In this document: positions 11,264-49,512 of the stretch, piece after piece
Layout: each line of letters starts with the position of its first letter
Numbering within the stretch: the first letter of the stretch is position 1
Origin: a virus
Taxonomy: Duplodnaviria; Caudoviricetes
DNA: 64,000 nucleotides
Direction: 5' to 3' (one strand)
Virus record (IMG/VR): IMGVR_UViG_3300044846_003573
Notes under the pieces: generated by a model
What the model saw: the letters and a program-made list of their open reading frames with translations, nothing else
Database searches by the model: none
What the model was told of the DNA's origin: nothing
Made by a program: the position numbers and the translations under genes

Positions 11264-12097
11264 ATGTTACTAAAAGTTGGGTCTAAAGGAGAAGACGTTA
11301 AAAAACTCCAAGCAAAATTAGGTACCACCGCTGATGGAAGTTTCGGTCCTGGTACAGAAAAACTGGTTAAAGAATGGCAATCGGATAACGGACTAACAGC
11401 TGACGGTATCGTTGGTGATGGTACTTGGTCTAAGATGTTCCCAACAACTCAACCAGTTCAAGTGGTTAAAGAAGATGTTGTTATCCCGACAAGTTCTGAG
11501 TTTAAATTACAAAATCTAAAAGGACATGTTCCTGACGCAGTAATTGCTCAAATCCCTGAAACTGCTAAAAAATTCAATATTACTAACCCATTAAGATTAG
11601 CTCATTTCTTGGCTCAGTGTGGACACGAGTCAGGTGGGTTTAAAGCTGTTTCTGAGAACCTTAACTATTCTGCTGACGGACTTAAGAAAATCTTTGGTAA
11701 GTATTTCCCTGGTAACTTAAATGAGTCATACGCTCGTCAACCTGAAAAGATTGCTTCACGTGTTTATGGAAGTAGAATGGGTAATGGTGATGAGTCAACA
11801 GGTGAAGGTTTCAAGTTCCGTGGAAGAGGTTACATCCAATTAACTGGTAAGAATAACTATACAAACTTCGCTAAGTTCATTGGTGAAGATACTGTGTCTA
11901 ATCCTGATTTAGTTGCAACCAAATATCCTTTGGCATCTGCGGCGTTCTTCTTTGATTCAAATAAACTTTGGTCAATCTGTGATAAGGGTGCAGATGTTGC
12001 AACGGTCACGGCAGTTACCAAGAGAGTTAATGGTGGTACGATAGGTCTACCAGATAGAATAAAACACTTCAACGAGTATTATAACCTACTTAAATAA
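11264..12097 (+). CDS. endolysin: peptidoglycan-binding domain plus GH19 (chitinase-like) muramidase
   Basis: GSKGEDVKKLQ..DGSFGPGT..ADGIVGDGTW PG-binding repeat, AHFLAQCGHESGG, FRGRGYIQLTGKNNY and TKRVNGGTIGL. Confidence 0.92.
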   Translation: MLLKVGSKGEDVKKLQAKLGTTADGSFGPGTEKLVKEWQSDNGLTADGIVGDGTWSKMFPTTQPVQVVKEDVVIPTSSEFKLQNLKGHVPDAVIAQIPETAKKFNITNPLRLAHFLAQCGHESGGFKAVSENLNYSADGLKKIFGKYFPGNLNESYARQPEKIASRVYGSRMGNGDESTGEGFKFRGRGYIQLTGKNNYTNFAKFIGEDTVSNPDLVATKYPLASAAFFFDSNKLWSICDKGADVATVTAVTKRVNGGTIGLPDRIKHFNEYYNLLK

Positions 12098-12185: not shown

Positions 12186-13238
12186 ATGAAAAAAATCAAA
12201 TTATTTCTCTTAACTCTTTTTGCATTCATTGGAATGAGTGCATCATCACAAGTATTAACGTCTTTTAACGTTGATATAATTAACCTCGGAGGATGTCCAT
12301 ACACATTGTTCGGAAACTATTATGGAGGTGGTATTCAAGGTAGTATTACTTTAACACAACAACCTACAGGAAGTTATGTTGCAGTTGTACCAGCAATTGA
12401 TAGTCTAAATGTTAGTATCTGTGCAATTTATACTTCACCATGTTTAGGTGAGACTTGTATAAATGAAACAATATATCTTGGGTCAGGACAAGGTGTTCAG
12501 ACATTTACGATAGTACTTCAAAACCAAGACTCAGATTTTGATGGGTTCATGGATAACATTGACTGTAATCCATTTGACCCATATATCTATCCAGGTGCAC
12601 CTGAACTATGTTATGACGGTATTGATAACAACTGTGATGGTTTAATTGAGGCAATGCCGACAATTGATACTCTGTACTTTGTTCCTGATTCACTTGTATC
12701 TGAACCAAACACTATTTACGTGGTTTACCAAGGTTCAAATACTGTAGAATGGGAATGGTTTTTTGGAAATGGAGGAAATGGGACGAGTTCAAACGAACAA
12801 TACCCAACCATTACATTCCCTACCTCAACGTTTACTTCACAAATGCTCCCGATTAACTTATACGCAATTTCCATTAATGGTTGTCAGGTTTATACTTCAA
12901 TAAACTTTTCAATTGATAGTAATGGAGTTTGGACACCGGGTGGAATTTTAAATGATTATACCTTAAACGTTGTTCCTGAATTTATAATTGGGGTTGAAGA
13001 AACAATGACTAATAACGTTAAAGTTTGGCCAAACCCTGTGTTAGGTGTTGTTAATATTAATACACCTTCAAATAGTGGGATGTTAAGAATTATGTCTATC
13101 GACGGAAGATGTGTCTATCAAGAAAAATATTTAACTAACAACATTCAGTTTGATTCTGAAATATTAAGTGACGGAACCTACGTTATTACTCTTACTGACG
13201 ATAGTGGTAAGTTTTATACAACAAGAATTATTAAATAA
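12186..13238 (+). CDS. secreted protein with a T9SS type A C-terminal sorting domain, metal-binding repeat and PKD-like domain
   Basis: Sec signal peptide; [33 protein letters not shown]; WEWFFGNG; C-terminal [23 protein letters not shown]. Confidence 0.85.
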
Positions 13239-39405: not shown

Positions 39406-41277
39406 ATGGGAAAAATTATAGGTATTGACCTTGGAACAACTAATTCATGTGTTGCCGTAATGGAAGGTAACGAACCAGTTGTAATTACAAACAGTGAAGG
39501 AAAAAGAACCACCCCTTCAATTGTGGGTTTCTTAAATGGTGGTGAGAGAAAGGTTGGCGACCCGGCTAAACGTCAGGCGGTTACTAATCCTGATAAGACT
39601 ATCTCATCTATCAAACGTTTCATGGGAACAAGTTTTGATGAAAGTAAGGGTGAGGTTAAACGTGTACCTTATAAAGTGGTTAAGGGTGATGGTGGAACTC
39701 CTCGTGTTGAGATTGAGGATAGAAAGTATTCACCACAAGAAATTTCCGCAATGGTTCTTCAAAAGATGAAACAAACTGCTGAGGACTATTTGGGAAGTGA
39801 AGTTACTGAAGCGGTTATCACCGTACCGGCATACTTCAACGATGCTCAACGTCAAGCTACAAAAGAAGCTGGTGAGATTGCGGGATTGAAGGTGATGAGA
39901 ATTGTTAACGAACCAACTGCGGCAGCACTTGCTTACGGATTGGACAAACAATCTAAAGATATGAAGATTGTTGTGTTTGACTGTGGTGGTGGAACACATG
40001 ACGTATCTGTGTTGGAACTTGGTGATGGTGTGTTTGAAGTATTGTCTACTGATGGTGATACACACCTTGGTGGTGATGACTTTGACCAAGCAATCATTGA
40101 CTGGTTGGTTACAGAGTTCAAAGATGAAAACGGAATTGACTTGACCAAAGATGCTATGGCTCTTCAACGTCTTCGTGAAGGAGCTGAGAAGGCGAAGATT
40201 GAATTATCTTCTTCACCATCTACGGAGATTAACTTACCATATATTATGCCTGTTGATGGTATACCGAAACACTTGGTAAGAACTTTAACTAAGGCTAAGT
40301 TTGAACAACTTGTTGATAGTTTGGTTGAAAGAACTATTGCTCCTTGTAAGTCGGCATTGAAGAACGCAGGAATTAAGACAAGTGATATTGACGAAATCAT
40401 TTTGGTTGGAGGAACAACACGTATTCCGGCAATTCAGGAAGCAGTTAAGAAGTTCTTCGGTAAGGAACCATCAAAGGGTGTTAACCCTGATGAGGTTGTT
40501 GCTCTTGGAGCAGCAATTCAGGCAGGTGTATTAGCAGGTGATGTTAAAGATGTATTGTTATTAGATGTAACACCACTATCACTTGGTATTGAAACTATGG
40601 GTGGAGTATTCACAAAGTTAATTGAGGCTAACACGACTATCCCGACTAAGAAGTCACAGGTATTCTCAACTGCGGTTGATAACCAACCTACCGTTGAAAT
40701 CCATGTATTACAAGGTGAGAGAGCGATGGCTAAAGACAACCGAAGTATTGGACGTTTCCACTTGGATGGTATCCCACCGGCACAAAGAGGTATTCCACAG
40801 GTTGAGGTAACATTTGATATTGATGCTAATGGTATCATCAATGTATCGGCATTAGACAAAGGAACTAACAAACAACAAAATATCCGCATTGAATCATCAT
40901 CAGGACTTTCGAAAGAAGAGATTGAAAAGATGAGACAAGAGGCGGAGATGAACGCTGAATCAGATAAGAAAGCAAAAGAAGATGCTGAGGTTATCAACCA
41001 AGCTGACACAACAATCTTCCAAGTGGAAAAGTCTTTAAAAGATATTGAAGATAAAATCACGGAAGAACAAAAGTCAGAGGTAACAACTGCTCTTGAAGAA
41101 TTGAAATCTGCTCATTCATCAAAGGACATTGAGAAGATTAAGGAAGGAATTGAGAACATTAATAACGTGTTTCAAGGGATTACCGCAAATCTTTATAGTC
41201 AATCGTCTGATATGAATGAAACCATGACTGATGATTCTGAAGTATCTGATGTAGATTTTGAAGAAGTTGGTAAGTAG
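39406..41277 (+). CDS. dnaK: Hsp70 chaperone DnaK
   Basis: [54 protein letters not shown]-terminal DVDFEEV. Confidence 0.98.
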
Positions 41278-41297
41278 TTCATAACCAACTAATGTTA

Positions 41298-41325
41298 AAA
41301 CCCCTCACTTTGAGGGGTTTTTTTA
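41298..41325 (+). terminator. intrinsic terminator
   Basis: aaaacccctcactttgaggggttttttt. Confidence 0.8.
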
Positions 41326-41348
41326 TTTAATAAAGGTATTTATGAAAT

Positions 41349-42620
41349 ATGACGAAAAATACAAAAATCTATTTACTTTTTTCTATTTTAATAATGTCTG
41401 TATTCTTTTTGGTTAAAACATCTGTTTTACTTGAAATACAGGAATCAACAAGAGTTACACGTGGTATTGAATACATTTGTTTTATTTTGTTAATTCCTAT
41501 ATCAATATTAATGATTAAAGACTTTATCAAATCTAATAAAAATTCAATATCTAAAGAATCTGTAGATAAGTTAATTAAATTAGAAAATGAACTTACTAAT
41601 AGAATGACCGCTATCAATAAATCTAATGCGGTTATTGAATTTGATTTAGAAGGTAATATTATTTTTGCCAATGATTTGTTTATAAAAACTATGGGATATC
41701 CATCACAGGATGAAATAGTTGGAAAACATCACAGAATTTTTGTGGAAGATGATTATGAGAAAAGTGAGGATTATTGTCTTTTTTGGGAAAAATTAAGAAG
41801 TGGTGTATTATTTTCAGGGGAAATTGTTAGAGTTAAAAAAGATGGGTCTTTAGTTTATTTACAAGCGACCTACAATCCTATTTTTGATACTGATGGTAAG
41901 ATTTATCGTGTTATGAAAATCGCTATTGATATCACGAATTCTTACGAACAGAAGAAAGAGATTGAAAGAAAGAATACATACTTGGAACATGCTGCTAAGA
42001 TATTGAGACACGATATGCATTCAGGTATTAATACCTATATACCAAGAGGTGTTAACTCGTTGGAGAGAAGATTAACTCAAGAAGATATTGTTAAACTTAA
42101 AATTGAGGCACCACTTAAAATGATTAAGGAAGGACTTAAGCATTCACAGAAAGTTTATAAAGGTGTTTATGAATTTACCAATCTGGTAAAGAAAGATGTT
42201 GTTCTTAATAAAACTGAATTTAACATCAAGGACATTCTCAAGGACTATTTGTCCTCGACGGCATACATTAGTCAGGTTATGTTGGATGATAACCTACCAA
42301 CGATTGAAGTTAATGAACCATTGTTTTGTACAGCATTGGATAACCTAATTAGGAATGGTTTAAAATATAATGATTCAGATACCAAGTTTGTTAAGATATA
42401 CTCTGAAGGTGATATGATATTCATACAGGATAATGGTAGAGGTATTACCCAAGAAGATTTTAATTATTTATCAAAACCATACACCAGAAAAGAAGGTCAA
42501 AAAGAATCGGGTACTGGTTTAGGATTGAATATCTGTGTTGCCATTTTAGAAGAACACGGATTTAAAATAACCTGTGAAAAAAATGAAACAGGAACTAAAA
42601 TGAAAATCAAATTTAAATGA
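41349..42620 (+). CDS. membrane-bound PAS-domain sensor histidine kinase
   Basis: Two TM helices; PAS (SNAVIEFDLEGNIIFANDLF..GKHHRIFV..FWEKL..YLQATYNPI); H-box RHDMH; N-box DNLIRNGLKYN; G1 QDNGRGI; G2 GTGLGL. Confidence 0.93.
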   Translation: MTKNTKIYLLFSILIMSVFFLVKTSVLLEIQESTRVTRGIEYICFILLIPISILMIKDFIKSNKNSISKESVDKLIKLENELTNRMTAINKSNAVIEFDLEGNIIFANDLFIKTMGYPSQDEIVGKHHRIFVEDDYEKSEDYCLFWEKLRSGVLFSGEIVRVKKDGSLVYLQATYNPIFDTDGKIYRVMKIAIDITNSYEQKKEIERKNTYLEHAAKILRHDMHSGINTYIPRGVNSLERRLTQEDIVKLKIEAPLKMIKEGLKHSQKVYKGVYEFTNLVKKDVVLNKTEFNIKDILKDYLSSTAYISQVMLDDNLPTIEVNEPLFCTALDNLIRNGLKYNDSDTKFVKIYSEGDMIFIQDNGRGITQEDFNYLSKPYTRKEGQKESGTGLGLNICVAILEEHGFKITCEKNETGTKMKIKFK

Positions 42621-43234
42621 AAACATTACTAACTTTTATTTTCTTAACAATTTCTTTGTTTGGGTTTAGTCAAATTAAATACCCAATTCAAACAATCTAT
42701 AGAGGTGACTCTGTTGTTATCCTATCTGTTAAACAATCTGTTGATATTAATAAAGCAATTGAAACACAAAGAAGGATTATTAGAGAACAAGGTAAAAAAA
42801 TCACATCCTTAAATAATAAGATAGATAGTTTAAATAACATTGTTGAAAATATACCTAACATGTTAGATAGTATCAAATATGTAGCAGATACGACATATAA
42901 ATGGGCTGATGAATTGAATATGACTCTTTGGGAATACGCTACAAATGGAGCGTTCATATACACTATACCCCCATACAACAAGTTATATTTTGTGAATTTA
43001 GATGATTACAATCTTTACACTCATGAATACGGAAAAATTCTTGTTTTTGAAAAAATGACTAAAAGTGAGTATGAAGAATATAAAAAATTCAGAGAAGAGT
43101 TTGATATGCAGTTCGCACCAGCAACAAATTATTTTCACAATTTAAAGTTTCTTGATTTTAATGGTATAACTCGAAGATATGAATCATGGATTTGGAAAAA
43201 TAAAAGTTTATTAAAAGAAGAATTAAAAAAGTAA
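42617..43234 (+). CDS. secreted coiled-coil protein
   Basis: Signal peptide (SLFGFSQ) and a coiled-coil segment; translationally coupled between the two kinases. Confidence 0.75.
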   Translation: MKTLLTFIFLTISLFGFSQIKYPIQTIYRGDSVVILSVKQSVDINKAIETQRRIIREQGKKITSLNNKIDSLNNIVENIPNMLDSIKYVADTTYKWADELNMTLWEYATNGAFIYTIPPYNKLYFVNLDDYNLYTHEYGKILVFEKMTKSEYEEYKKFREEFDMQFAPATNYFHNLKFLDFNGITRRYESWIWKNKSLLKEELKK

Positions 43235-44562
43235 TGAAAAAGATAATATTATTGATTTTAGTAACACTCGTATCGACAGGTTTACACTCACAAAATTTGA
43301 ATTACAACGATACATTAGTTGACGGAATTGACGTTTCATGGTCTAACGATAATTTACAGATTGATGGTGATACTAGTCAAGTTGCGGCTATGGATATACA
43401 AGAAATCGTTACAACTTGGATTCCACCTGAACCTGAACCAGTTGATGAAACTAAATTGTCTGAAAGTGATTTAGCAAGTATTGCTGAAGACTTACAGTTT
43501 TTAACTGACTTACCAAAATCGTATACTGATTTACCTAAAGAAGATTTAAAAAATGTATTAGTTCAAATTGATAACAAGATTAATAAACTTACCGCAGAAC
43601 GAGATTTATTATTAGCTCAAGCTATAAGAAATGAAGAACTTATAAAATCAAAAGAAAATACCATTACTTCGTTAAGTAAAGAAAAGAATATCATCGGTTT
43701 GACTTTGGAGACTGATGACTTAATGGATGAGAATGGAAATTTGATGACTGAAAAAACTGATTTGGAAAAACAAAGAGAGACCTTGAAGAAATACCTTTAT
43801 GGTGCTTTAGGTGTTGTTATACTGTTTGTTTTAATATTGGCGGTTGTCTTACAAAGAAAGAGAATACAAGTACAGGATGTTGAGATTGAACAACAGATTA
43901 GTGATATTGCTAAGAAGAATAGTTACTTGGAACACGCTGCAAGAATCATTAGACATGACATGCACTCAGGTATTAACACATACATGCCAAGAGGTATTAC
44001 ATCATTAGAAAAAAGATTAACCGTTGAGGACATCCAAAGATTAAAGATTGAAGGGGCACTTAAGATGGTTAAAGAAGGATTAAACCATACGCAAAAAGTT
44101 TATAAGAGTGTTTATGAGTTTACCAATCTTGTTAAACAAAATGTTGTGTTAAATAAATCTGTGGTTAATCTTAAAGATTTGATTTGGAAATACATTTCAC
44201 CAAATTCATATAGTTCACAGGTTGAGATATCTGACTTGGGTGATATGGAAGTGAATGAGACTTTATTCTGTAATGCGGTTGAGAACTTAATTAAGAATGG
44301 TTTATCATATAACGATAGTGAAGTTAAAAAAGTTAAGATATACAACGAAGAAGAATATTTAATAGTTGAGGATAACGGTAAAGGATTCTCACAAAAACAA
44401 CTTGAAAAACATTTAACAAAATACTCAAAGAAGGCTGATGTCACTGGTGAAGAGAAGGGTCTTGGGTTGAATATATGTGTTGCGATATTAGAAGAACATG
44501 GTTTTAAATTGAGTTGTGAAAAAATTGAAGGTGGAACCAAAATGAAAATAAAAATAAAATAA
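43234..44562 (+). CDS. sensor histidine kinase with extracytoplasmic coiled-coil domain
   Basis: Signal peptide, one TM helix, H-box RHDMHSGINTY, ENLIKNGLSYN, EDNGKGF, KGLGLNI. Confidence 0.92.
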   Translation: MKKIILLILVTLVSTGLHSQNLNYNDTLVDGIDVSWSNDNLQIDGDTSQVAAMDIQEIVTTWIPPEPEPVDETKLSESDLASIAEDLQFLTDLPKSYTDLPKEDLKNVLVQIDNKINKLTAERDLLLAQAIRNEELIKSKENTITSLSKEKNIIGLTLETDDLMDENGNLMTEKTDLEKQRETLKKYLYGALGVVILFVLILAVVLQRKRIQVQDVEIEQQISDIAKKNSYLEHAARIIRHDMHSGINTYMPRGITSLEKRLTVEDIQRLKIEGALKMVKEGLNHTQKVYKSVYEFTNLVKQNVVLNKSVVNLKDLIWKYISPNSYSSQVEISDLGDMEVNETLFCNAVENLIKNGLSYNDSEVKKVKIYNEEEYLIVEDNGKGFSQKQLEKHLTKYSKKADVTGEEKGLGLNICVAILEEHGFKLSCEKIEGGTKMKIKIK

Positions 44563-45285
44563 GTGGCATACGTTTACCAACATATTAGAAAAGACACTAA
44601 TGAACCTTTTTATATTGGGATTGGTAGTGATTTAAATTTTTATCGGGCTAATAAGTTCTCTGAAAGAAATGAAATATGGGAAAGAATTAAAAATAAAACT
44701 GAAATTTTAGTTGAAATATTACATAATAATATTGAATGGGATGAAGCTTGTGAAATTGAGATAGAACTAATAAAAAAATATGGTAGAATAAATAATAAAA
44801 CTGGTATTTTATCTAATATGACTGATGGAGGTGAAGGGACTTTGAATCGGGTGATTAATGAAGATACTAGGTATTTGTTAGGTAATGGAAATAGAGGGAA
44901 ACAAAGAACTGACGAATCTAGGTTAAAACAAAGTATTACTAATAAAGGTGTTAAAAAAACAAAAGAACATTGTGAAAAAATACGACAATATAGATTAGGA
45001 AAAAAAATGAGTGAGGAGAGCAAGAAAAAAATGTCGGAAAATTCAAAAGGAAGACAAACTTGGAATAAAGGGGTTAAATTTACAGAAGAATCTAAAATTA
45101 AAATGAGTAATTCAAAAAAAGGTAAAAAAACTTCAGGTAATAACCCAAATTCTAAAATAGTTTTAAATACTGAAAATGGTATTTATTATGATACTCTTAA
45201 AGATGCTGCGTTATCTGTTAATATAGGGTATTCAAATTTTAAACAAAAAATAAAAAAAAATAAAATAAATTTTAAATATGTGTAA
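44563..45285 (+). CDS. GIY-YIG-type homing endonuclease with NUMOD3-like repeats
   Basis: YVYQHIRKDTNEPFYIGIG; LSNMTDGGEG; repeated SEESKKKMS-like motifs; GTG start. Confidence 0.85.
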   Translation: MAYVYQHIRKDTNEPFYIGIGSDLNFYRANKFSERNEIWERIKNKTEILVEILHNNIEWDEACEIEIELIKKYGRINNKTGILSNMTDGGEGTLNRVINEDTRYLLGNGNRGKQRTDESRLKQSITNKGVKKTKEHCEKIRQYRLGKKMSEESKKKMSENSKGRQTWNKGVKFTEESKIKMSNSKKGKKTSGNNPNSKIVLNTENGIYYDTLKDAALSVNIGYSNFKQKIKKNKINFKYV

Positions 45286-45287
45286 AA

Positions 45288-45719
45288 ATGATTGATTCAA
45301 TTTTATTGGTTGATGATGAAGACCTTTTTCATCTAGTTTTTGAGGACTCTTGTTCATTACTTGACATTACATTGTCATTAAGAAGTTTGAACAGTTCGGA
45401 TGAAGCTGCTAAACTATTTGCTGGATGGCAAAAAGATACATCACAAAAACCTGAATGTGTGTTTGTGGATTTAAACATTATAGGTTCATCCTTTGATGGT
45501 ATTGAACTTATCCGTAAGATTAACTTTGAATATGGTAACCATGTAGTTATCGGTATCATATCTTCAAGTAACGAACCTGAAGAACAGGCTAAGGCAGTTC
45601 AGGCTGGTGCTCAGTTTTGGATTATCAAGTCGGATGACATTGAACCAAGACTTGAAGAGTTTAAGAAAGACTACGACGGATATAAGAACAGAACAAACCC
45701 TTTCAAAGTTTATAAATGA
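45288..45719 (+). CDS. single-domain response regulator (CheY-like receiver)
   Basis: ILLVDDED acidic pocket, VFVDLNI phosphoacceptor Asp, IISSS, GAQFWIIKS conserved Lys; no output domain. Confidence 0.93.
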   Translation: MIDSILLVDDEDLFHLVFEDSCSLLDITLSLRSLNSSDEAAKLFAGWQKDTSQKPECVFVDLNIIGSSFDGIELIRKINFEYGNHVVIGIISSSNEPEEQAKAVQAGAQFWIIKSDDIEPRLEEFKKDYDGYKNRTNPFKVYK

Positions 45720-46399
45720 TTGTTTTAGATAAAAATACAAAGAAGATATTAATGGAGACCTTTAAGACCAAGAACATTGGTCTTGAGGGTAACATTACTA
45801 AATTAATAGATGCTGAAGATGACCAAGAGTTTAAAGAGTATCTTAAAACTTGTATTGAAAAGGATACGACAACTAGACGTAAACGTTTAGAGATGACCAA
45901 ACAGGTTCAGGTTCAGAACAAAGACTTGACTGAACTTAACGAAGAAAACCAAAGAATACTTGAGGAACTCCAAAATACTTTAACAGGTATGGAGAACCAA
46001 AACAATCAGATTGAGAGTCAAAACTCTGAACTTCTTGAATGGAAATTAGAAAACGAAAAGATTAGTGCCGAACTTGTTGAGGCGATGAAACAATCTGAAC
46101 AAGCAAGAATAACTGCTGAAAACGCTAAAAACGAAGCGGAAAACAATTTGGATTTAATACAGAAGAAAACTCAATTTGAGTTGATTAATAATATTGTTAG
46201 AGTTGCTCTCTATGTAATCATAGGTGTTGGATTTATTACGACTGGTATATATGTTTATTCTATGTCAATAGGAATGGATACAGACATCATCGGCTCTACT
46301 TGGAGTAATATGTTTGGTATTCTATTAACAAATAGTTTCAGTATCGTGGGAACAATACTTGGGGTGAAGTATGGGGCAAGTCCTAACAAGGATAAATAA
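45716..46399 (+). CDS. coiled-coil protein with two C-terminal TM helices
   Basis: Long heptad region followed by two hydrophobic segments. Confidence 0.8.
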   Translation: MIVLDKNTKKILMETFKTKNIGLEGNITKLIDAEDDQEFKEYLKTCIEKDTTTRRKRLEMTKQVQVQNKDLTELNEENQRILEELQNTLTGMENQNNQIESQNSELLEWKLENEKISAELVEAMKQSEQARITAENAKNEAENNLDLIQKKTQFELINNIVRVALYVIIGVGFITTGIYVYSMSIGMDTDIIGSTWSNMFGILLTNSFSIVGTILGVKYGASPNKDK

Positions 46400-46415
46400 A
46401 TAAAAAAATAAAAAA

Positions 46416-46940
46416 ATGAGTAGATTTAAAAGAATGTTATTCGGTGAAACTCCGTATGTAAAGGTTGAAGATAAAAATAGATTTTATTACATGCTTCAAC
46501 AGATGCAGGCAAACAGATGGAAGATAACAATGATTGTATTGTTTTTATTCTTCTTTATCATTGCCGGTATAAACTCCGCAATATTTTTTGGTGTGTCCAT
46601 TGAAGAAAGTTGGAAAGAAATGTTATTGATATTATTTGGAGCGTTTGTTGGTAATCTTAATAAGGTTGTTGATTACTGGTTCAACTCTGAAGACAGAGAC
46701 AAGATGTTAATTCAAAAGGTTGACGAGGAAGATGGAACATCACTATCAAGTGCTGTGGAATACCCAATAACACCAAGACCACCACAACCACCAGTTGTTG
46801 TAGTTACACAAGTTAAAGAAGAAACTCCTGTGGTTGTTGAAGAACCAGTTGTTTATACTGAACCTGAAGTATATGAGGAACCAATCGTTGAGGAATACCC
46901 AACAGAGGAACCGACACAAGAAGGTGAAGAAAACGTATAA
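46416..46940 (+). CDS. two-TM membrane protein with acidic Pro/Glu-rich tail (holin-like)
   Basis: WKEMLLILFGAFVGNLNKVVDYWFNS resembles the LG..V.YYFGSS end of small phage holins. Confidence 0.6.
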   Translation: MSRFKRMLFGETPYVKVEDKNRFYYMLQQMQANRWKITMIVLFLFFFIIAGINSAIFFGVSIEESWKEMLLILFGAFVGNLNKVVDYWFNSEDRDKMLIQKVDEEDGTSLSSAVEYPITPRPPQPPVVVVTQVKEETPVVVEEPVVYTEPEVYEEPIVEEYPTEEPTQEGEENV

Positions 46941-46955
46941 TAAGTTAACTTAATA

Positions 46956-46991
46956 TTGAAAACCCCACTTGAAAAGGTGGGGTTTTTGTTT
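46956..46991 (+). repeat. 36-bp direct repeat (terminator), copy 1
   Basis: ttgaaaaccccacttgaaaaggtggggtttttgttt, identical at 47729-47764. Confidence 0.9.
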
Positions 46992-48231: not shown

Positions 48232-48423
48232 ATGAAAACTTTCAAAAAAATAATAGGAATACTTCCCTTAATCGTTGCTCTTTACCTTTTTGTGGTATTG
48301 TTGATTTCAGCTTTTACAGGAACTAAAATTGAAGAATATGTTGATGTTAAGTGGTGGGGATTGTTCCTTTTAGTTGACCTTTGGGCTGAACAAAAAAATA
48401 AGAAGTTATATGAGGGTGAATAA
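48232..48423 (+). CDS. small membrane protein
   Basis: Two hydrophobic segments. Confidence 0.65.
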   Translation: MKTFKKIIGILPLIVALYLFVVLLISAFTGTKIEEYVDVKWWGLFLLVDLWAEQKNKKLYEGE

Positions 48424-48796
48424 GTTAAGGTTTGCGGTTATCGCTCACGACAATAAGAAGGCCGACATGGTTGCCTTTATCATGAAGAGGTTGGACTTCT
48501 TCAAAGATAATGTTGAAATATTTGCAACAGGAACAACTGGTAAACATATTGAGTTTGCTGGTTTGGATGTTACAAGACTGAAGTCAGGACCGATGGGTGG
48601 TGATGCTCAGATTGCGGCAATGATTGTTGAAGATAAGATTGATTGTGTCATCTTCTTCATTGACCCTTTGTCTGCTCACCCTCACGAAGTTGACGTTCAA
48701 ATGTTAGTTCGTATATGTAATGTTACCGACACACCTATTTCTTGTAATTATGCTACGGCAAGTATGTTGATTAATTATTTTGAAAATCAAGAATAA
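48410..48796 (+). CDS. mgsA: methylglyoxal synthase
   Basis: AVIAHDNKK, ATGTTG, LKSGPMGGDAQI, FFIDPLSAHPHEVDVQMLVRIC. Confidence 0.95.
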   Translation: MRVNKLRFAVIAHDNKKADMVAFIMKRLDFFKDNVEIFATGTTGKHIEFAGLDVTRLKSGPMGGDAQIAAMIVEDKIDCVIFFIDPLSAHPHEVDVQMLVRICNVTDTPISCNYATASMLINYFENQE

Positions 48797-48813
48797 TATC
48801 ATATCTTTGTCCC

Positions 48814-49512
48814 ATGATTTTAAAGATTGAACAAGACATAAAAGGAATATTCCCAAACGTATGGATATGTTCTGACCCGCACTACAATCACAAGAACATT
48901 TGTAGAGGAACGACTAATTGGAGAACAACAGATAACGAAATCCCTGTTGACCAAACTCGTGACTTTGACACACTTGAACGAATGAACCAATCTATCGTTG
49001 ATGGTATCAATTGGAACGTTGGACAGGATGATGTATTGGTTTGTCTTGGTGACTGGTCCTTTGGTGGGTTTGAGTTCATTAAACAATTCAGAGATAGAAT
49101 TGTGTGTAAGAATGTTCACCTTGTATTAGGTAACCATGACCAACACGTTGAAAGAAACAAAGGGGACATACAATCAATCTTCAGTTCAGTATCCGAATAC
49201 CTACGACTTGTAGTTATGGAACCTGTTAAGAAGAACGAAGTAAAGAGACATGAGTTTGTATGTATGCACTACCCAATCCAAAGTTGGGACGGAATGAATA
49301 AAGGTATTCCTCACCTTCACGGACACGTTCACTTACCAAACAATAAAAAGTTTGGTAATGGAAAGAAAATGGACGTTGGGTTTGACGGACACCCTGAGTT
49401 CCGACCATACAACTTGTTGAGAGAAGTATTACCTTTGATGAAAAATCGTGAGCAGTTGTCGGATATGCCGAATGACCACCACCTTGAAAGATTATTAAAC
49501 GCTGATAAATAA
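48814..49512 (+). CDS. calcineurin-like metallophosphoesterase
   Basis: SDPHYNH, CLGDWS, LGNHD, HLHGHVH. Confidence 0.9.
   Translation: MILKIEQDIKGIFPNVWICSDPHYNHKNICRGTTNWRTTDNEIPVDQTRDFDTLERMNQSIVDGINWNVGQDDVLVCLGDWSFGGFEFIKQFRDRIVCKNVHLVLGNHDQHVERNKGDIQSIFSSVSEYLRLVVMEPVKKNEVKRHEFVCMHYPIQSWDGMNKGIPHLHGHVHLPNNKKFGNGKKMDVGFDGHPEFRPYNLLREVLPLMKNREQLSDMPNDHHLERLLNADK

What the first reader, a model, noticed from the sequence alone, without database searches (positions are those of the whole stretch)
41349..45719. Phage-encoded two-component signalling operon: two histidine kinases (one with PAS), a secreted partner and a CheY-like regulator
Seen in sequence: a translationally coupled operon behind a TATTTAT motif (41337-41343) encodes HK1 (two TM, PAS, kinase), a secreted coiled-coil protein, HK2 (signal peptide, extracytoplasmic coiled coil, TM, kinase) and a receiver-only regulator with all catalytic residues (DD, D, S/T, K). 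The two kinases share an atypical H-box, LEHAA(K/R)I(L/I)RHDMHSGINTY(I/M)PRG, unlike the canonical HE/DLRxP, which suggests a private, duplicated subfamily. AT content and flanking genes match the phage backbone. Established: complete phosphorelays are rare in lytic phage genomes, and this PAS type occurs in redox/oxygen-sensing chemoreceptors. Inference: the phage runs an insulated circuit integrating a cytoplasmic signal (PAS) and a periplasmic one (HK2). With no DNA-binding output, it would act post-translationally on a protein partner, for example in lysis timing, superinfection sensing or host gliding motility. The homing endonuclease inserted inside the operon hints that the locus is conserved among relatives.
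Basis: partly seen in the sequence, partly recalled or inferred. Interest (0 to 1): 0.88.

Follow-up and report, generated by a model that had tools for sequence, protein, structure and literature searches.

The report
Phage two-component signalling cassette
A widespread group of ~300-kb freshwater phages that probably infect Bacteroidota carries its own sensor kinase, CheY-like relay protein and a new membrane protein as a fixed three-gene unit, usually next to the phage's cell-wall-degrading enzyme, so the virus probably reads the state of its host to control a membrane or lysis step; this window holds an expanded copy with a second kinase and a selfish endonuclease.

Summary
All six genes lie where stated and are tightly packed between two hairpin terminators. 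Both kinases have intact H, N, G1 and G2 boxes, and the receiver keeps D9/D10/D61/S92/K114.

The interpretation needs re-centring:
- In 80 IMG/VR relatives the conserved unit is HK1 (PAS kinase), then the receiver, then the 45716 coiled-coil/2-TM protein (ORF6).
- The secreted ORF2 plus HK2 is an accessory insert, present in about 18 of 80 loci. HK2 arose by one duplication of HK1 inside the phage clade.
- The homing endonuclease occurs only here and in one other locus; a 97%-identical relative lacks it.
- The "atypical" H-box aligns with the HK853 H-box. It is invariant across the family, including two chromosomal Bacteroidetes homologues (56-62% identity), so it is not strictly phage-private. 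None of the 440 other Bacteroidota genomes sampled has this receiver type.
- ORF6's N-domain is fused to a kinase in one bacterium, so it behaves as an input module. Modelling of receiver with ORF6 gave weak support (0.39 against 0.00 for controls).
- A GH19 endolysin lies within 2 kb of the cassette in 32 of 51 non-redundant relatives, but 29 kb away in this window.

Likely function: a phage-owned circuit gating a membrane or lysis step. No paper found describes it. This scan has noted the same module on other DNA.

The parts
41297..41321 (+). Intrinsic terminator closing dnaK, upstream boundary of the unit
   Evidence: Stem of 11 pairs followed by a T run.
41337..41343 (+). TATTTAT element 12 nt before the HK1 start: candidate promoter -7-like box, implying a near-leaderless mRNA
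   Evidence: The sequence is. The same motif sits at -11 to -13 in 24 of 59 distinct upstream regions of relatives. It is not enriched in the window as a whole.
41349..42620 (+). HK1: membrane-anchored cytoplasmic PAS histidine kinase. TM at about 41367-41429 and 41472-41522; PAS 41625-41945; DHp with His221 at 42009-42011; CA 42324-42614.
   Evidence: Pfam; PDB alignment to HK853; PAS nearest to MmoS, Aer and NifL; hydropathy; residue positions.
42617..43234 (+). ORF2: secreted protein (signal peptide, conserved N-terminal strands, long helix, C-terminal domain). Accessory; travels with HK2.
   Evidence: No family hit. Homologues only in HK2-bearing loci. The AF2 model is poor, pLDDT 64.
43234..44562 (+). 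HK2: paralogous kinase with signal/anchor, about 170-aa extracytoplasmic helical region, TM at 43798-43863, His241 at 43954-43956, and CA 44263-44556.
   Evidence: Pfam; hydropathy and 61% core identity to HK1; monophyletic and nested in the phage HK1 clade.
44563..45285 (+). Free-standing homing endonuclease (NUMOD3; GIY-YIG-like N-terminus by eye) inserted in the short HK2|RR spacer
   Evidence: Pfam NUMOD3 and phrog_314. Absent from the 97%-identical G001. Present only in L063 among 80 loci. Junctions are aligned in A3.
45288..45719 (+). RR: stand-alone receiver with D9, D10, D61, S92, W111 and K114, plus a conserved C-terminal extension (EPRL...F..Y)
   Evidence: Pfam; alignment A1. It is a narrow subfamily: 78 representatives at E<=1e-10 out of 1.84 billion.
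45716..46399 (+). ORF6: conserved third gene of the cassette. N-terminal cap domain (45716-45940), variable-length coiled coil, and a near-invariant 2-TM hairpin (46181-46369). Proposed partner or output of the receiver.
   Evidence: Follows RR in all loci with room, including those with 44-50% identical RRs. Alignment A2. AF2 model pLDDT 83. N-domain fused to a HisKA kinase in L087. Complex model gives weak support, 0.39 against controls 0.00.
46416..46940 (+). ORF7: small membrane protein with an acidic Pro/Glu tail, last gene before the terminator. Accessory: homologues in 13 fetched loci, in several of which it lies between ORF6 and the GH19 lysin.
46958..46990 (+). Hairpin terminator closing the unit
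   Evidence: Read from the sequence. The consensus scan missed it because the T tail is interrupted.
11264..12097 (+). GH19 / PG_binding_1 endolysin-like gene, the usual neighbour of the cassette in relatives but 29 kb away here
   Evidence: tblastn gives 74% identity to the neighbour gene of relatives; Pfam; adjacency statistics.

Best explanation
**What it is.** This is a self-contained, phage-owned two-component signalling cassette.
- Its conserved core has three genes. HK1 is a membrane-tethered kinase whose sensing domains (PAS here; PAS-PAS or GAF-PAS-PAS in relatives) face the cytoplasm. The second gene is a stand-alone CheY-like receiver. The third is ORF6, a virus-specific protein with a small N-terminal cap, a roughly 150-residue helix and a two-helix membrane hairpin.
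- In this phage lineage the core has gained a second input branch. A paralogous kinase, HK2, has an extracytoplasmic region and comes with a secreted protein, ORF2.
- It has also gained a selfish homing endonuclease.

**Proposed mechanism.**
1. HK1, and here also HK2, autophosphorylates on the first His of RHDMH (His221 in HK1, His241 in HK2).
2. Both kinases pass the phosphoryl group to Asp61 of the one receiver. Their DHp helices are nearly identical.
3. The phosphorylated receiver docks, through its alpha1 and alpha5 face, on the invariant residues of the ORF6 N-domain.
4. The signal travels down the coiled coil to the membrane hairpin.
5. Because the cassette usually abuts the phage's GH19 endolysin in relatives, the favoured output is control of lysis timing or of envelope permeability according to the host's redox or energy state.

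**Shown:** the domains, the catalytic residues, the conservation, the gene linkage, the HK2 duplication and the HEG mobility.

**Inferred:** phosphotransfer, receiver-ORF6 contact (weak modelling support only), the signal sensed and the lysis link.

**My odds:** functional phage two-component system 0.85; ORF6 is the receiver's direct partner 0.6; the output is lysis or envelope control 0.35.
For: **Domains and residues**
- Pfam domains. H-box alignment to HK853. N, G1 and G2 boxes.
- The receiver's catalytic set is invariant.

**Phage ownership**
- The nearest record is an IMG/VR virus, 97% identical. More than 588 viral loci carry the kinase, on contigs up to 322 kb.
- Complete relatives carry bS21. 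That matches the bS21 phages of Bacteroidetes described in PMC9723584.
- The phage clade has 95/98 support in the kinase tree.
- The receiver type was found in only 1 of 441 Bacteroidota genomes searched.

**Three-gene core**
- HK1-RR-ORF6 is present in every locus with room, while the flanks vary.
- RRs that are only 44-50% identical are still followed by ORF6 homologues.
- ORF6 clusters are 96-100% viral.

**ORF6 as the receiving element**
- In the chromosomal locus L087 its N-domain replaces the sensor of a canonical HisKA kinase directly after the RR.
- In the complex model the median ipSAE was 0.39 (runs 0.57, 0.09, 0.39) and the best control scored 0.00. In the tool's calibration that mark was reached by 58 of 80 solved complexes and 2 of 110 mismatched pairs, and passes at 0.60 or under count as weak.
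- The modelled interface falls on ORF6's invariant G25, R54, R57, L58, T61, Q65 and N68, and on RR helix alpha1.

**Lysis link**
- A GH19/PG_binding_1 gene lies within 150 nt of the cassette in 23 of 51 non-redundant loci, and within 2 kb in 32 of 51. It occurs in three different arrangements.

**Input and expression**
- Flavin-type PAS similarity.
- Pieces of the operon occur with 0 mismatches in metatranscriptome contigs from four studies.
Against: - No biochemical data exist for any member.
- The complex model is only 'weak support': one of three runs scored 0.09. It may simply imitate a DHp helix docking on alpha1.
- In this window, and in its closest relatives L055 and L059, the cassette is 29 kb from the GH19 gene, or has none within the fetched flanks. 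The lysis link therefore rests on other genomes and could be inherited synteny.
- ORF6 matches no holin or other known family.
- The kinase fusion that marks the N-domain as an input module is a single lineage.
- The PAS kept in this window lacks Aer's RHPDMP residues. Flavin binding, and therefore the signal sensed, is unknown.
- RNA-library contigs do not prove transcription.
Confidence: 0.55

Rival explanations
1. The receiver's real targets are host proteins and ORF6 is only an accessory. The phage kinases would load a CheY-like protein that binds a host machine (for example envelope, secretion or motility apparatus). Alternatively the receiver would drain or jam host two-component signalling.
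For: - Single-domain receivers commonly act on assorted protein partners (established knowledge of CheY and DivK).
- The chromosomal homologue L088 has the kinase and the receiver but no ORF6, so the pair can work without it.
- The complex model is weak.
Against: - RR-ORF6 linkage is universal in phage loci and persists down to 44% RR identity.
- The receiver type is missing from 440 sampled Bacteroidota genomes, so no conserved host pathway built around it is evident.
- The near-invariance of the H-box and the RR suggests an insulated pair.
Confidence: 0.18
2. ORF6 is not the output but an auxiliary regulator of the pathway. It could be a membrane-anchored phosphatase, scaffold or kinase modulator acting on the RR or HK1. 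The true output would lie elsewhere.
For: - The predicted contact uses the RR alpha1 face, the same face kinases and some phosphatases use.
- ORF6 has an invariant polar helix (T61, Q65, N68), which loosely recalls the amide-bearing helices of CheZ/CheX-type phosphatases (from memory, not tested).
- HK1 is usually membrane-anchored too.
Against: - No acidic-plus-amide catalytic pair is invariant in A2.
- Some HK1 forms have no TM segment, yet ORF6 keeps its membrane hairpin.
- In L087 the N-domain sits where a sensor domain sits, upstream of a kinase core. That fits signal reception better than catalysis.
Confidence: 0.12
3. The cassette is a superinfection, defence or counter-defence sensor, not a lysis clock. 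It would detect envelope or energy disturbance caused by a second phage or by host abortive-infection systems, and respond at the membrane.
For: - In this lineage HK2 and the secreted ORF2 add an extracytoplasmic input, as expected for sensing events at the envelope.
- The input domains are highly variable (375-743 aa; GAF and PAS gain and loss), a pattern common in conflict systems.
Against: - I did not scan the PADLOC library.
- The neighbours seen are housekeeping or lysis genes rather than defence genes.
- The core sensor is cytoplasmic in every relative.
Confidence: 0.1
4. The operon is a recently captured host operon carried as a passenger with no phage-specific role.
For: - Chromosomal Bacteroidetes homologues exist with the same H-box (L087, L088).
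- The composition matches an AT-rich Bacteroidota-like background.
Against: - The best bacterial matches are only 56-62% identical.
- Hundreds of phage loci form one clade, with the cellular copies outside it.
- The cellular copies are sporadic: 1 of 441 genomes.
- ORF6 is virus-specific.
- The RR is 77-100% conserved across the phage clade.
Confidence: 0.03

Closest known systems
Class I (HisKA-type) sensor kinases such as Thermotoga HK853 (PDB 2c2a/3dge) paired with a single-domain receiver (RR468)
   Same: The DHp + CA core aligns over about 190 residues with the His in register, and the N, G1 and G2 boxes are present. The cognate receiver has no output domain.
   Different: The H-box reads H-D-M-H-S-G, lacking the usual Pro and the T/N of the phosphatase motif, and Pfam HisKA does not score. 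The system is encoded by a virus. A dedicated membrane protein always follows the receiver.
CheY/DivK-type stand-alone receivers that act by protein-protein contact (CheY-FliM/CheZ; DivK-DivL/PleC)
   Same: It is a receiver-only protein with a full catalytic set and an aromatic switch residue (W111 at the CheY Y106 position). The chromosomal variant L087, where the RR is followed by an N-domain-kinase fusion, resembles DivK-type control of a second kinase.
   Different: There are no chemotaxis or cell-cycle genes nearby. It has a conserved 25-residue C-terminal extension. The nearest solved sequence, 3ilh (deposited only as 'Two component response regulator'), scores just 26.7 bits. The proposed partner is a new protein family.
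Flavin-binding PAS sensors: MmoS PAS-A (3ewk), Aer (8dik), NifL (2gj3)
   Same: These are the best PDB sequence matches for the window's PAS (55.7, 33.4 and 31.7 bits). By eye, the extra PAS of most relatives carries a motif (DHNIVNSG; sequences) close to the DHRIVNSG stretch of MmoS PAS-A seen. That extra PAS was not itself searched against solved structures.
   Different: The window's PAS replaces Aer's RHPDMP stretch with VEDDYE. The more MmoS-like PAS has been lost in this phage. Cofactor binding is untested.
Phage lysis-timing systems: holin/antiholin pairs, and T4 RI-T lysis inhibition that senses superinfection
   Same: It includes a small membrane protein with a 2-TM hairpin encoded next to the endolysin in most relatives. 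The logic is the same: a sensed signal adjusts a membrane step.
   Different: There is no sequence or fold similarity to any holin or antiholin family. Control would run through His-Asp phosphotransfer, which I know of in no phage lysis system (from my own knowledge; literature searches found none). In this window the lysin is 29 kb away.
bS21-encoding huge phages of freshwater Bacteroidetes (Chen et al. 2022, PMC9723584)
   Same: Complete relatives of this window (304-322 kb) carry bS21.
   Different: Neither the paper nor the two of its supplementary files held as text mentions a kinase, a response regulator or two-component signalling.

Membership tests
HisKA-type histidine kinase (class I, HK853/EnvZ-like) | Phospho-acceptor His in a DHp helix, in register with the family H-box | tested here: met
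   phmmer alignment to HK853 puts the first His of RHDMH on the H of HELRTP. This is His221 in HK1 and His241 in HK2.
HisKA-type histidine kinase (class I, HK853/EnvZ-like) | Match to the Pfam HisKA model (PF00512) | tested here: not met
   No PF00512 hit at E<=0.01 for HK1 or HK2. The H-box is a divergent variant (H-D-M-H-S-G).
HisKA-type histidine kinase (class I, HK853/EnvZ-like) | Bergerat ATP-binding domain with N, G1 and G2 boxes | tested here: met
   HATPase_c scores 55.4 and 48.7 bits against a cut-off of 26.4. The motifs NLI(R/K)NG, DNG(R/K)G and G(T/K)GLGL were located.
HisKA-type histidine kinase (class I, HK853/EnvZ-like) | ATP-dependent autophosphorylation and transfer to the cognate receiver | not testable with these tools
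   Needs purified proteins.
Response-regulator receiver domain (CheY-like, PF00072) | Pfam model above its curated cut-off | tested here: met
   36.4 bits against a cut-off of 30.2.
Response-regulator receiver domain (CheY-like, PF00072) | Acidic pair, phospho-acceptor Asp, Thr/Ser and Lys with CheY-like spacing | tested here: met
   D9, D10, D61, S92 and K114 are invariant in 26 sequences. W111 occupies the aromatic switch position.
Multi-step phosphorelay (His-Asp-His-Asp) | A hybrid kinase with its own receiver, and/or an HPt protein | tested here: not met
   No receiver domain in HK1 or HK2 and no HPt hit in any operon protein. ORF6 has no conserved His. This is a plain two-component pair.
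Flavin-binding PAS (Aer / NifL / MmoS type) | Closest sequence relatives among solved structures are flavin PAS domains | tested here: met
   3ewk scores 55.7 bits, 8dik 33.4 and 2gj3 31.7, followed by LOV domains.
Flavin-binding PAS (Aer / NifL / MmoS type) | Conservation of the cofactor-contacting residues, and bound flavin | tested here: inconclusive
   Aer's RHPDMP stretch aligns with VEDDYE in the window's PAS. I did not map the cofactor contacts of the other solved flavin PAS domains. Cofactor content needs spectroscopy.
Free-standing homing endonuclease (GIY-YIG / NUMOD3 class) | Nuclease-associated DNA-binding modules | tested here: met
   NUMOD3 scores 32 bits against a cut-off of 20.4. 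phrog_314 'homing endonuclease' has E = 7.8e-22.
Free-standing homing endonuclease (GIY-YIG / NUMOD3 class) | GIY-YIG catalytic domain recognised by a profile | tested here: inconclusive
   No Pfam GIY-YIG hit at E<=0.01. The N-terminus reads ...VYQ...(9 residues)...YIGIG by eye.
Free-standing homing endonuclease (GIY-YIG / NUMOD3 class) | Presence/absence polymorphism at one site among close relatives | tested here: met
   Absent from the 97%-identical G001, where a 17-nt spacer takes its place. Present at the same site in L063.
Holin / antiholin | Membership of a described holin family | tested here: not met
   ORF6 and ORF7 have no significant Pfam, PHROG or NCBIfam hit. Fold searches found no match at E<=0.1.
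Holin / antiholin | Small membrane protein encoded beside the endolysin | tested here: inconclusive
   ORF6 has a 2-TM hairpin. A GH19 gene is adjacent in 23 of 51 non-redundant relatives, but lies 29 kb away in this window.

The most novel reading that the evidence does not exclude
The phage runs a phosphorylation-gated lysis clock. A flavin-type PAS kinase reads the host's redox or energy state. A CheY-like protein carries the signal to ORF6, a new membrane protein that acts as a switchable holin or antiholin for the GH19 endolysin. In this lineage a second, outward-facing kinase plus its secreted partner adds an extracellular cue such as superinfection or cell density. This would be the first lysis or membrane decision in a virus made by its own His-Asp signalling pathway.
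Probability: 0.3. Interest if true: 0.85.

Novelty: new variant of a known kind. Interest (0 to 1): 0.66.

Why it matters
Phages are usually thought to read their host indirectly or through small-peptide or quorum receptors. A complete sensor-to-effector His-Asp pathway, owned by a virus, conserved in hundreds of environmental genomes and ending in a virus-specific membrane protein, would be a new way for a virus to make decisions.

It also has practical value:
- It offers a compact, apparently insulated kinase/receiver pair with an unusual, invariant H-box.
- It defines a new receiver-binding domain, the ORF6 N-cap.
- It provides a natural series of swapped input domains (TM, GAF, PAS) on one output core.
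- It bears on how abundant huge phages of freshwater Bacteroidota time host killing, and so on carbon turnover in lakes.

Tried and rejected
- **GenBank phages.** blastn of the operon, and tblastn of the RR and ORF6, gave no match. HK1 gave only partial PAS or CA hits.
- **Own assembly.** Not held.
- **ORF2, ORF6, ORF7, ORF8.** Nothing meaningful in Pfam, PHROGs or NCBIfam. PADLOC was not scanned.
- **ORF6 fold search.** No AFDB-cluster match with E below 0.4, and no PDB match with E below about 5. The long helix dominates the search.
- **ORF2 model.** AF2 pLDDT was 64, too poor to search.
- **Receiver-ORF6 complex.** Only 'weak support'. It is used as a hint, not as evidence of binding.
- **Metatranscriptomes.** Logan contigs from four runs cover pieces of the operon at low depth, some with 0 mismatches. 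Contigs cannot show strand, level or true transcription.
- **GTATTTAT motif.** Not significantly enriched in the window.
- **ORF6 N-domain fusions.** A search for more fusions to kinases found only the one L087 lineage.
- **Literature.** Four searches and three papers read found no description of this cassette.
- **Rejected reading: 'phosphorelay'.** No HPt or hybrid kinase is present.
- **Rejected reading: gliding-motility output.** No supporting evidence.
- **Rejected reading: recent passenger from the host.** See the rival explanations.
- **Direction of transfer.** Whether genes moved from phage to bacterium or the reverse could not be settled. The sister grouping of L087 and L088 has only 82/77 support, on long branches.

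Full report
**1. Observation**

- *ORFs and packing.* The window carries the stated ORFs: HK1 41349-42620, ORF2 42617-43234, HK2 43234-44562, a homing-endonuclease gene (HEG) 44563-45285 and RR 45288-45719. They are packed with 4-nt or 1-nt overlaps or direct abutment.
- *Domains.* Pfam finds PAS plus HATPase_c in HK1, HATPase_c in HK2, NUMOD3 in the HEG and Response_reg above its cut-off in the RR. PHROGs adds 'homing endonuclease' for the HEG, and places the kinases and the RR in PHROG families of viral proteins, one annotated 'kinase' and the others of unknown function.
- *Topology.* Hydropathy gives HK1 two TM segments joined by a loop of only about 14 residues. HK2 has an N-terminal signal/anchor and one TM at about 189-210.
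- *Boundaries.* A strong terminator follows dnaK at 41297-41321. A second hairpin at about 46958-46990 follows ORF7. The transcription unit therefore probably runs from 41349 to 46940 and includes two genes the finding left out.
- *Composition.* GC content is about 0.30, as in the rest of the window.

**2. The 'atypical' H-box**

- The kinase cores align with Thermotoga HK853 over about 190 residues. The first His of RHDMH falls on the phospho-acceptor His. That is His221 in HK1 and His241 in HK2, and the N, G1 and G2 boxes are intact.
- The H-box is therefore a HisKA variant (H-D-M-H-S-G) that the Pfam HisKA model does not score.
- The motif YLEHAA(K/R)I(L/I)RHDMHSGIN(T/V)Y(I/M)PRG is essentially invariant in about 100 copies from loci whose kinases are otherwise only 50-92% identical.

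**3. Whose genes are they?**

- The window's own assembly is not held. The nearest record is an IMG/VR virus fragment (G001), 96-98% identical across dnaK to ORF8.
- A scan of IMG/VR found more than 588 loci encoding HK1 relatives, on contigs up to 322 kb.
- Two relatives rated 100% complete, at 304 and 322 kb, carry ribosomal protein bS21. This matches the bS21 huge phages of freshwater Bacteroidetes described in PMC9723584. Neither that paper nor the two of its supplementary files held as text mentions kinases or regulators.
- The window's DnaK is 71% identical to that of a Bacteroidetes MAG.

**4. What is conserved**

A tblastn survey of 80 loci shows the following.
- HK1, then RR, then the 45716 product (ORF6) occur in that order in every locus with room. 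RR is the most conserved (77-100% identity), followed by HK1 (64-92%) and ORF6 (42-97%).
- ORF2 plus HK2 lie between HK1 and RR in only about 18 loci, four of which lack ORF2.
- The HEG occurs only in the window and in L063.
- The genes flanking the trio differ from lineage to lineage.
- More distant receivers found with a profile search (44-50% identical) are still followed by ORF6 homologues at 28-46% identity.
- The receiver subfamily is narrow: 78 representatives at E<=1e-10 among 1.84 billion.

**5. Input side**

- HK1 relatives range from 375 to 743 aa. The PAS-DHp-CA part is constant. The N-terminus carries optional TM pairs, a GAF domain and a further PAS with a DHNIVNSG motif that by eye resembles MmoS PAS-A.
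- The window has the minimal form: two TM segments plus one PAS.
- Its PAS is nearest to the flavin-binding PAS domains of MmoS, Aer and NifL, but it lacks Aer's RHPDMP stretch.
- Sensing is therefore cytoplasmic. The sensed signal is unknown, and redox or energy state is a reasonable guess.

**6. HK2 is a phage-born paralogue**

- In a maximum-likelihood tree of 73 kinase cores, rooted with the distant L102 kinase, HK2 sequences form one clade (100/99 support) nested inside the phage HK1 clade (95/98). HK2 branches are longer.
- The HK1 and HK2 cores are 61% identical. By eye their DHp helices differ at only a few positions, so both probably feed the one receiver. Heterodimers are conceivable; that is inference.

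**7. Cellular relatives**

- The species-genome collection gave eight loci with the same H-box, all from MAGs.
- L086 looks like a mis-binned phage contig, and L089 has only ORFan neighbours.
- Two are truly cellular. L088 lies on a 967-kb Bacteroidetes contig among TauE, Sox-type cytochrome c, TetR and ABC1 genes. L087 lies next to a giant T9SS-sorted surface protein.
- Identity to the window is 56% for the kinase and 62-67% for the RR.
- The receiver profile found no other carrier among 400 evenly sampled Bacteroidota genomes or 40 relatives of the L088 genome.
- The family is therefore overwhelmingly viral, with sporadic cellular copies. The claim that the subfamily is 'private' to phages is too strong.

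**8. ORF6**

- Alignment A2 shows three parts: a conserved N-terminal domain (invariant G25, Y42, R54, R57, L58, T61, Q65, N68), a coiled coil of variable length, and a nearly invariant polar two-helix membrane hairpin.
- AlphaFold (pLDDT 83) gives a small cap, one helix from residue 37 to 185 that runs into TM1, and a return helix.
- The protein atlas places it in clusters that are 96-100% viral.
- In the cellular locus L087, the gene after the RR has this same N-domain joined by a coiled coil to a canonical HisKA/HATPase_c core. There the domain sits where a sensor sits. Only this one lineage shows the fusion.
- A complex prediction of RR with ORF6(1-100) gave a median ipSAE of 0.39 (runs 0.57, 0.09, 0.39) against a best control of 0.00. 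The tool grades this as weak support: the mark was reached by 58 of 80 solved complexes and 2 of 110 mismatched pairs in its calibration, and passes at 0.60 or under count as weak. The modelled contacts use RR helix alpha1 and exactly the invariant ORF6 residues.

**9. A link to lysis, in relatives**

- Following a lead from earlier notes of this scan, I clustered all flanking genes. The commonest neighbour is a 275-aa PG_binding_1 + GH19 protein.
- It lies within 150 nt of the cassette in 23 of 51 non-redundant loci and within 2 kb in 32 of 51. Three different arrangements occur: downstream on the same strand, upstream divergent, and upstream on the same strand.
- In this window the orthologue is at 11264-12097, 29 kb away.

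**10. The homing endonuclease**

- G001 has HK2 and RR separated by a 17-nt spacer. The window and L063 have the HEG at that point, replacing about 10 nt.
- It is a free-standing selfish insert and says nothing about the pathway's function.

**11. Promoter**

- TATTTAT lies 12 nt before the HK1 start.
- GTATTTAT is not enriched in the window. TATTTAT does keep the -11 to -13 position in 24 of 59 distinct upstream regions of relatives whose surrounding sequence differs.

**12. Expression**

- Metatranscriptome assemblies from freshwater sediment, lake and wetland studies contain contigs matching parts of the operon, some with no mismatch.
- This is compatible with transcription but does not prove it.

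**13. Verdict**

The cassette is a genuine, ancient, phage-owned two-component system.
- Its core is HK1-RR-ORF6. HK2/ORF2 and the HEG are lineage-specific additions.
- The most likely mechanism is phosphotransfer to a CheY-like protein that acts on ORF6 at the membrane, with lysis or envelope control as the favoured but unproven output.
- I found no paper describing it. Earlier notes of this scan describe the same module on other DNA.

Noticed in passing
L002:3258-3896 (G001), between the homologues of window 46940 and 47026: The 97%-identical relative has an extra 212-aa gene here that the window lacks. Its N-terminus (MKKVIRLTESDLVRIVKRVISEQ) resembles the shared amphipathic leader that another first-reader note describes on many proteins of this genome.
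   Followed up: partly
window 12186-13238: Directly after the GH19 lysin gene, the phage encodes a protein with a MopE-type metal-binding motif and a T9SS C-terminal sorting domain (Por_Secre_tail). Relatives also carry CHU_C-tailed proteins near the cassette (L033:4318-6525). These phage-encoded T9SS cargo proteins fit a Bacteroidota host.
   Followed up: partly
L087:8041-9090: A chromosomal Bacteroidetes gene fuses the ORF6-type N-domain to a canonical HisKA/HATPase_c kinase, directly after the homologous PAS kinase and receiver. It looks like a receiver-controlled second kinase. Only one lineage was found.
   Followed up: yes
window 39406-41277: The window encodes a full-length phage DnaK/Hsp70, 71% identical to the DnaK of a Bacteroidetes MAG. 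Its position relative to the cassette varies among relatives: upstream here, downstream in others.
   Followed up: partly
window 48374-49512: An MGS-like domain protein and a calcineurin-like metallophosphatase lie just downstream. The metallophosphatase family is also a frequent neighbour of the cassette in relatives (L026:12456-13151).
   Followed up: no
L063:12595-13446 (minus strand): A truncated class II aminoacyl-tRNA-synthetase-like gene (tRNA-synt_2, 283 aa) sits next to the cassette in some relatives.
   Followed up: no
L090:8773-12872: In a Bdellovibrionota MAG contig, the kinase-receiver-ORF6 trio lies beside a PrkA / SpoVR / DUF444 stress-kinase operon. I could not decide whether this contig is cellular or viral.
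   Followed up: partly
window 42373 joined to 45449 in one metatranscriptome contig (run X1): The contig skips 3075 nt. It fits a co-occurring relative in which HK1 is followed directly by the receiver, with no ORF2, HK2 or HEG.
   Followed up: partly
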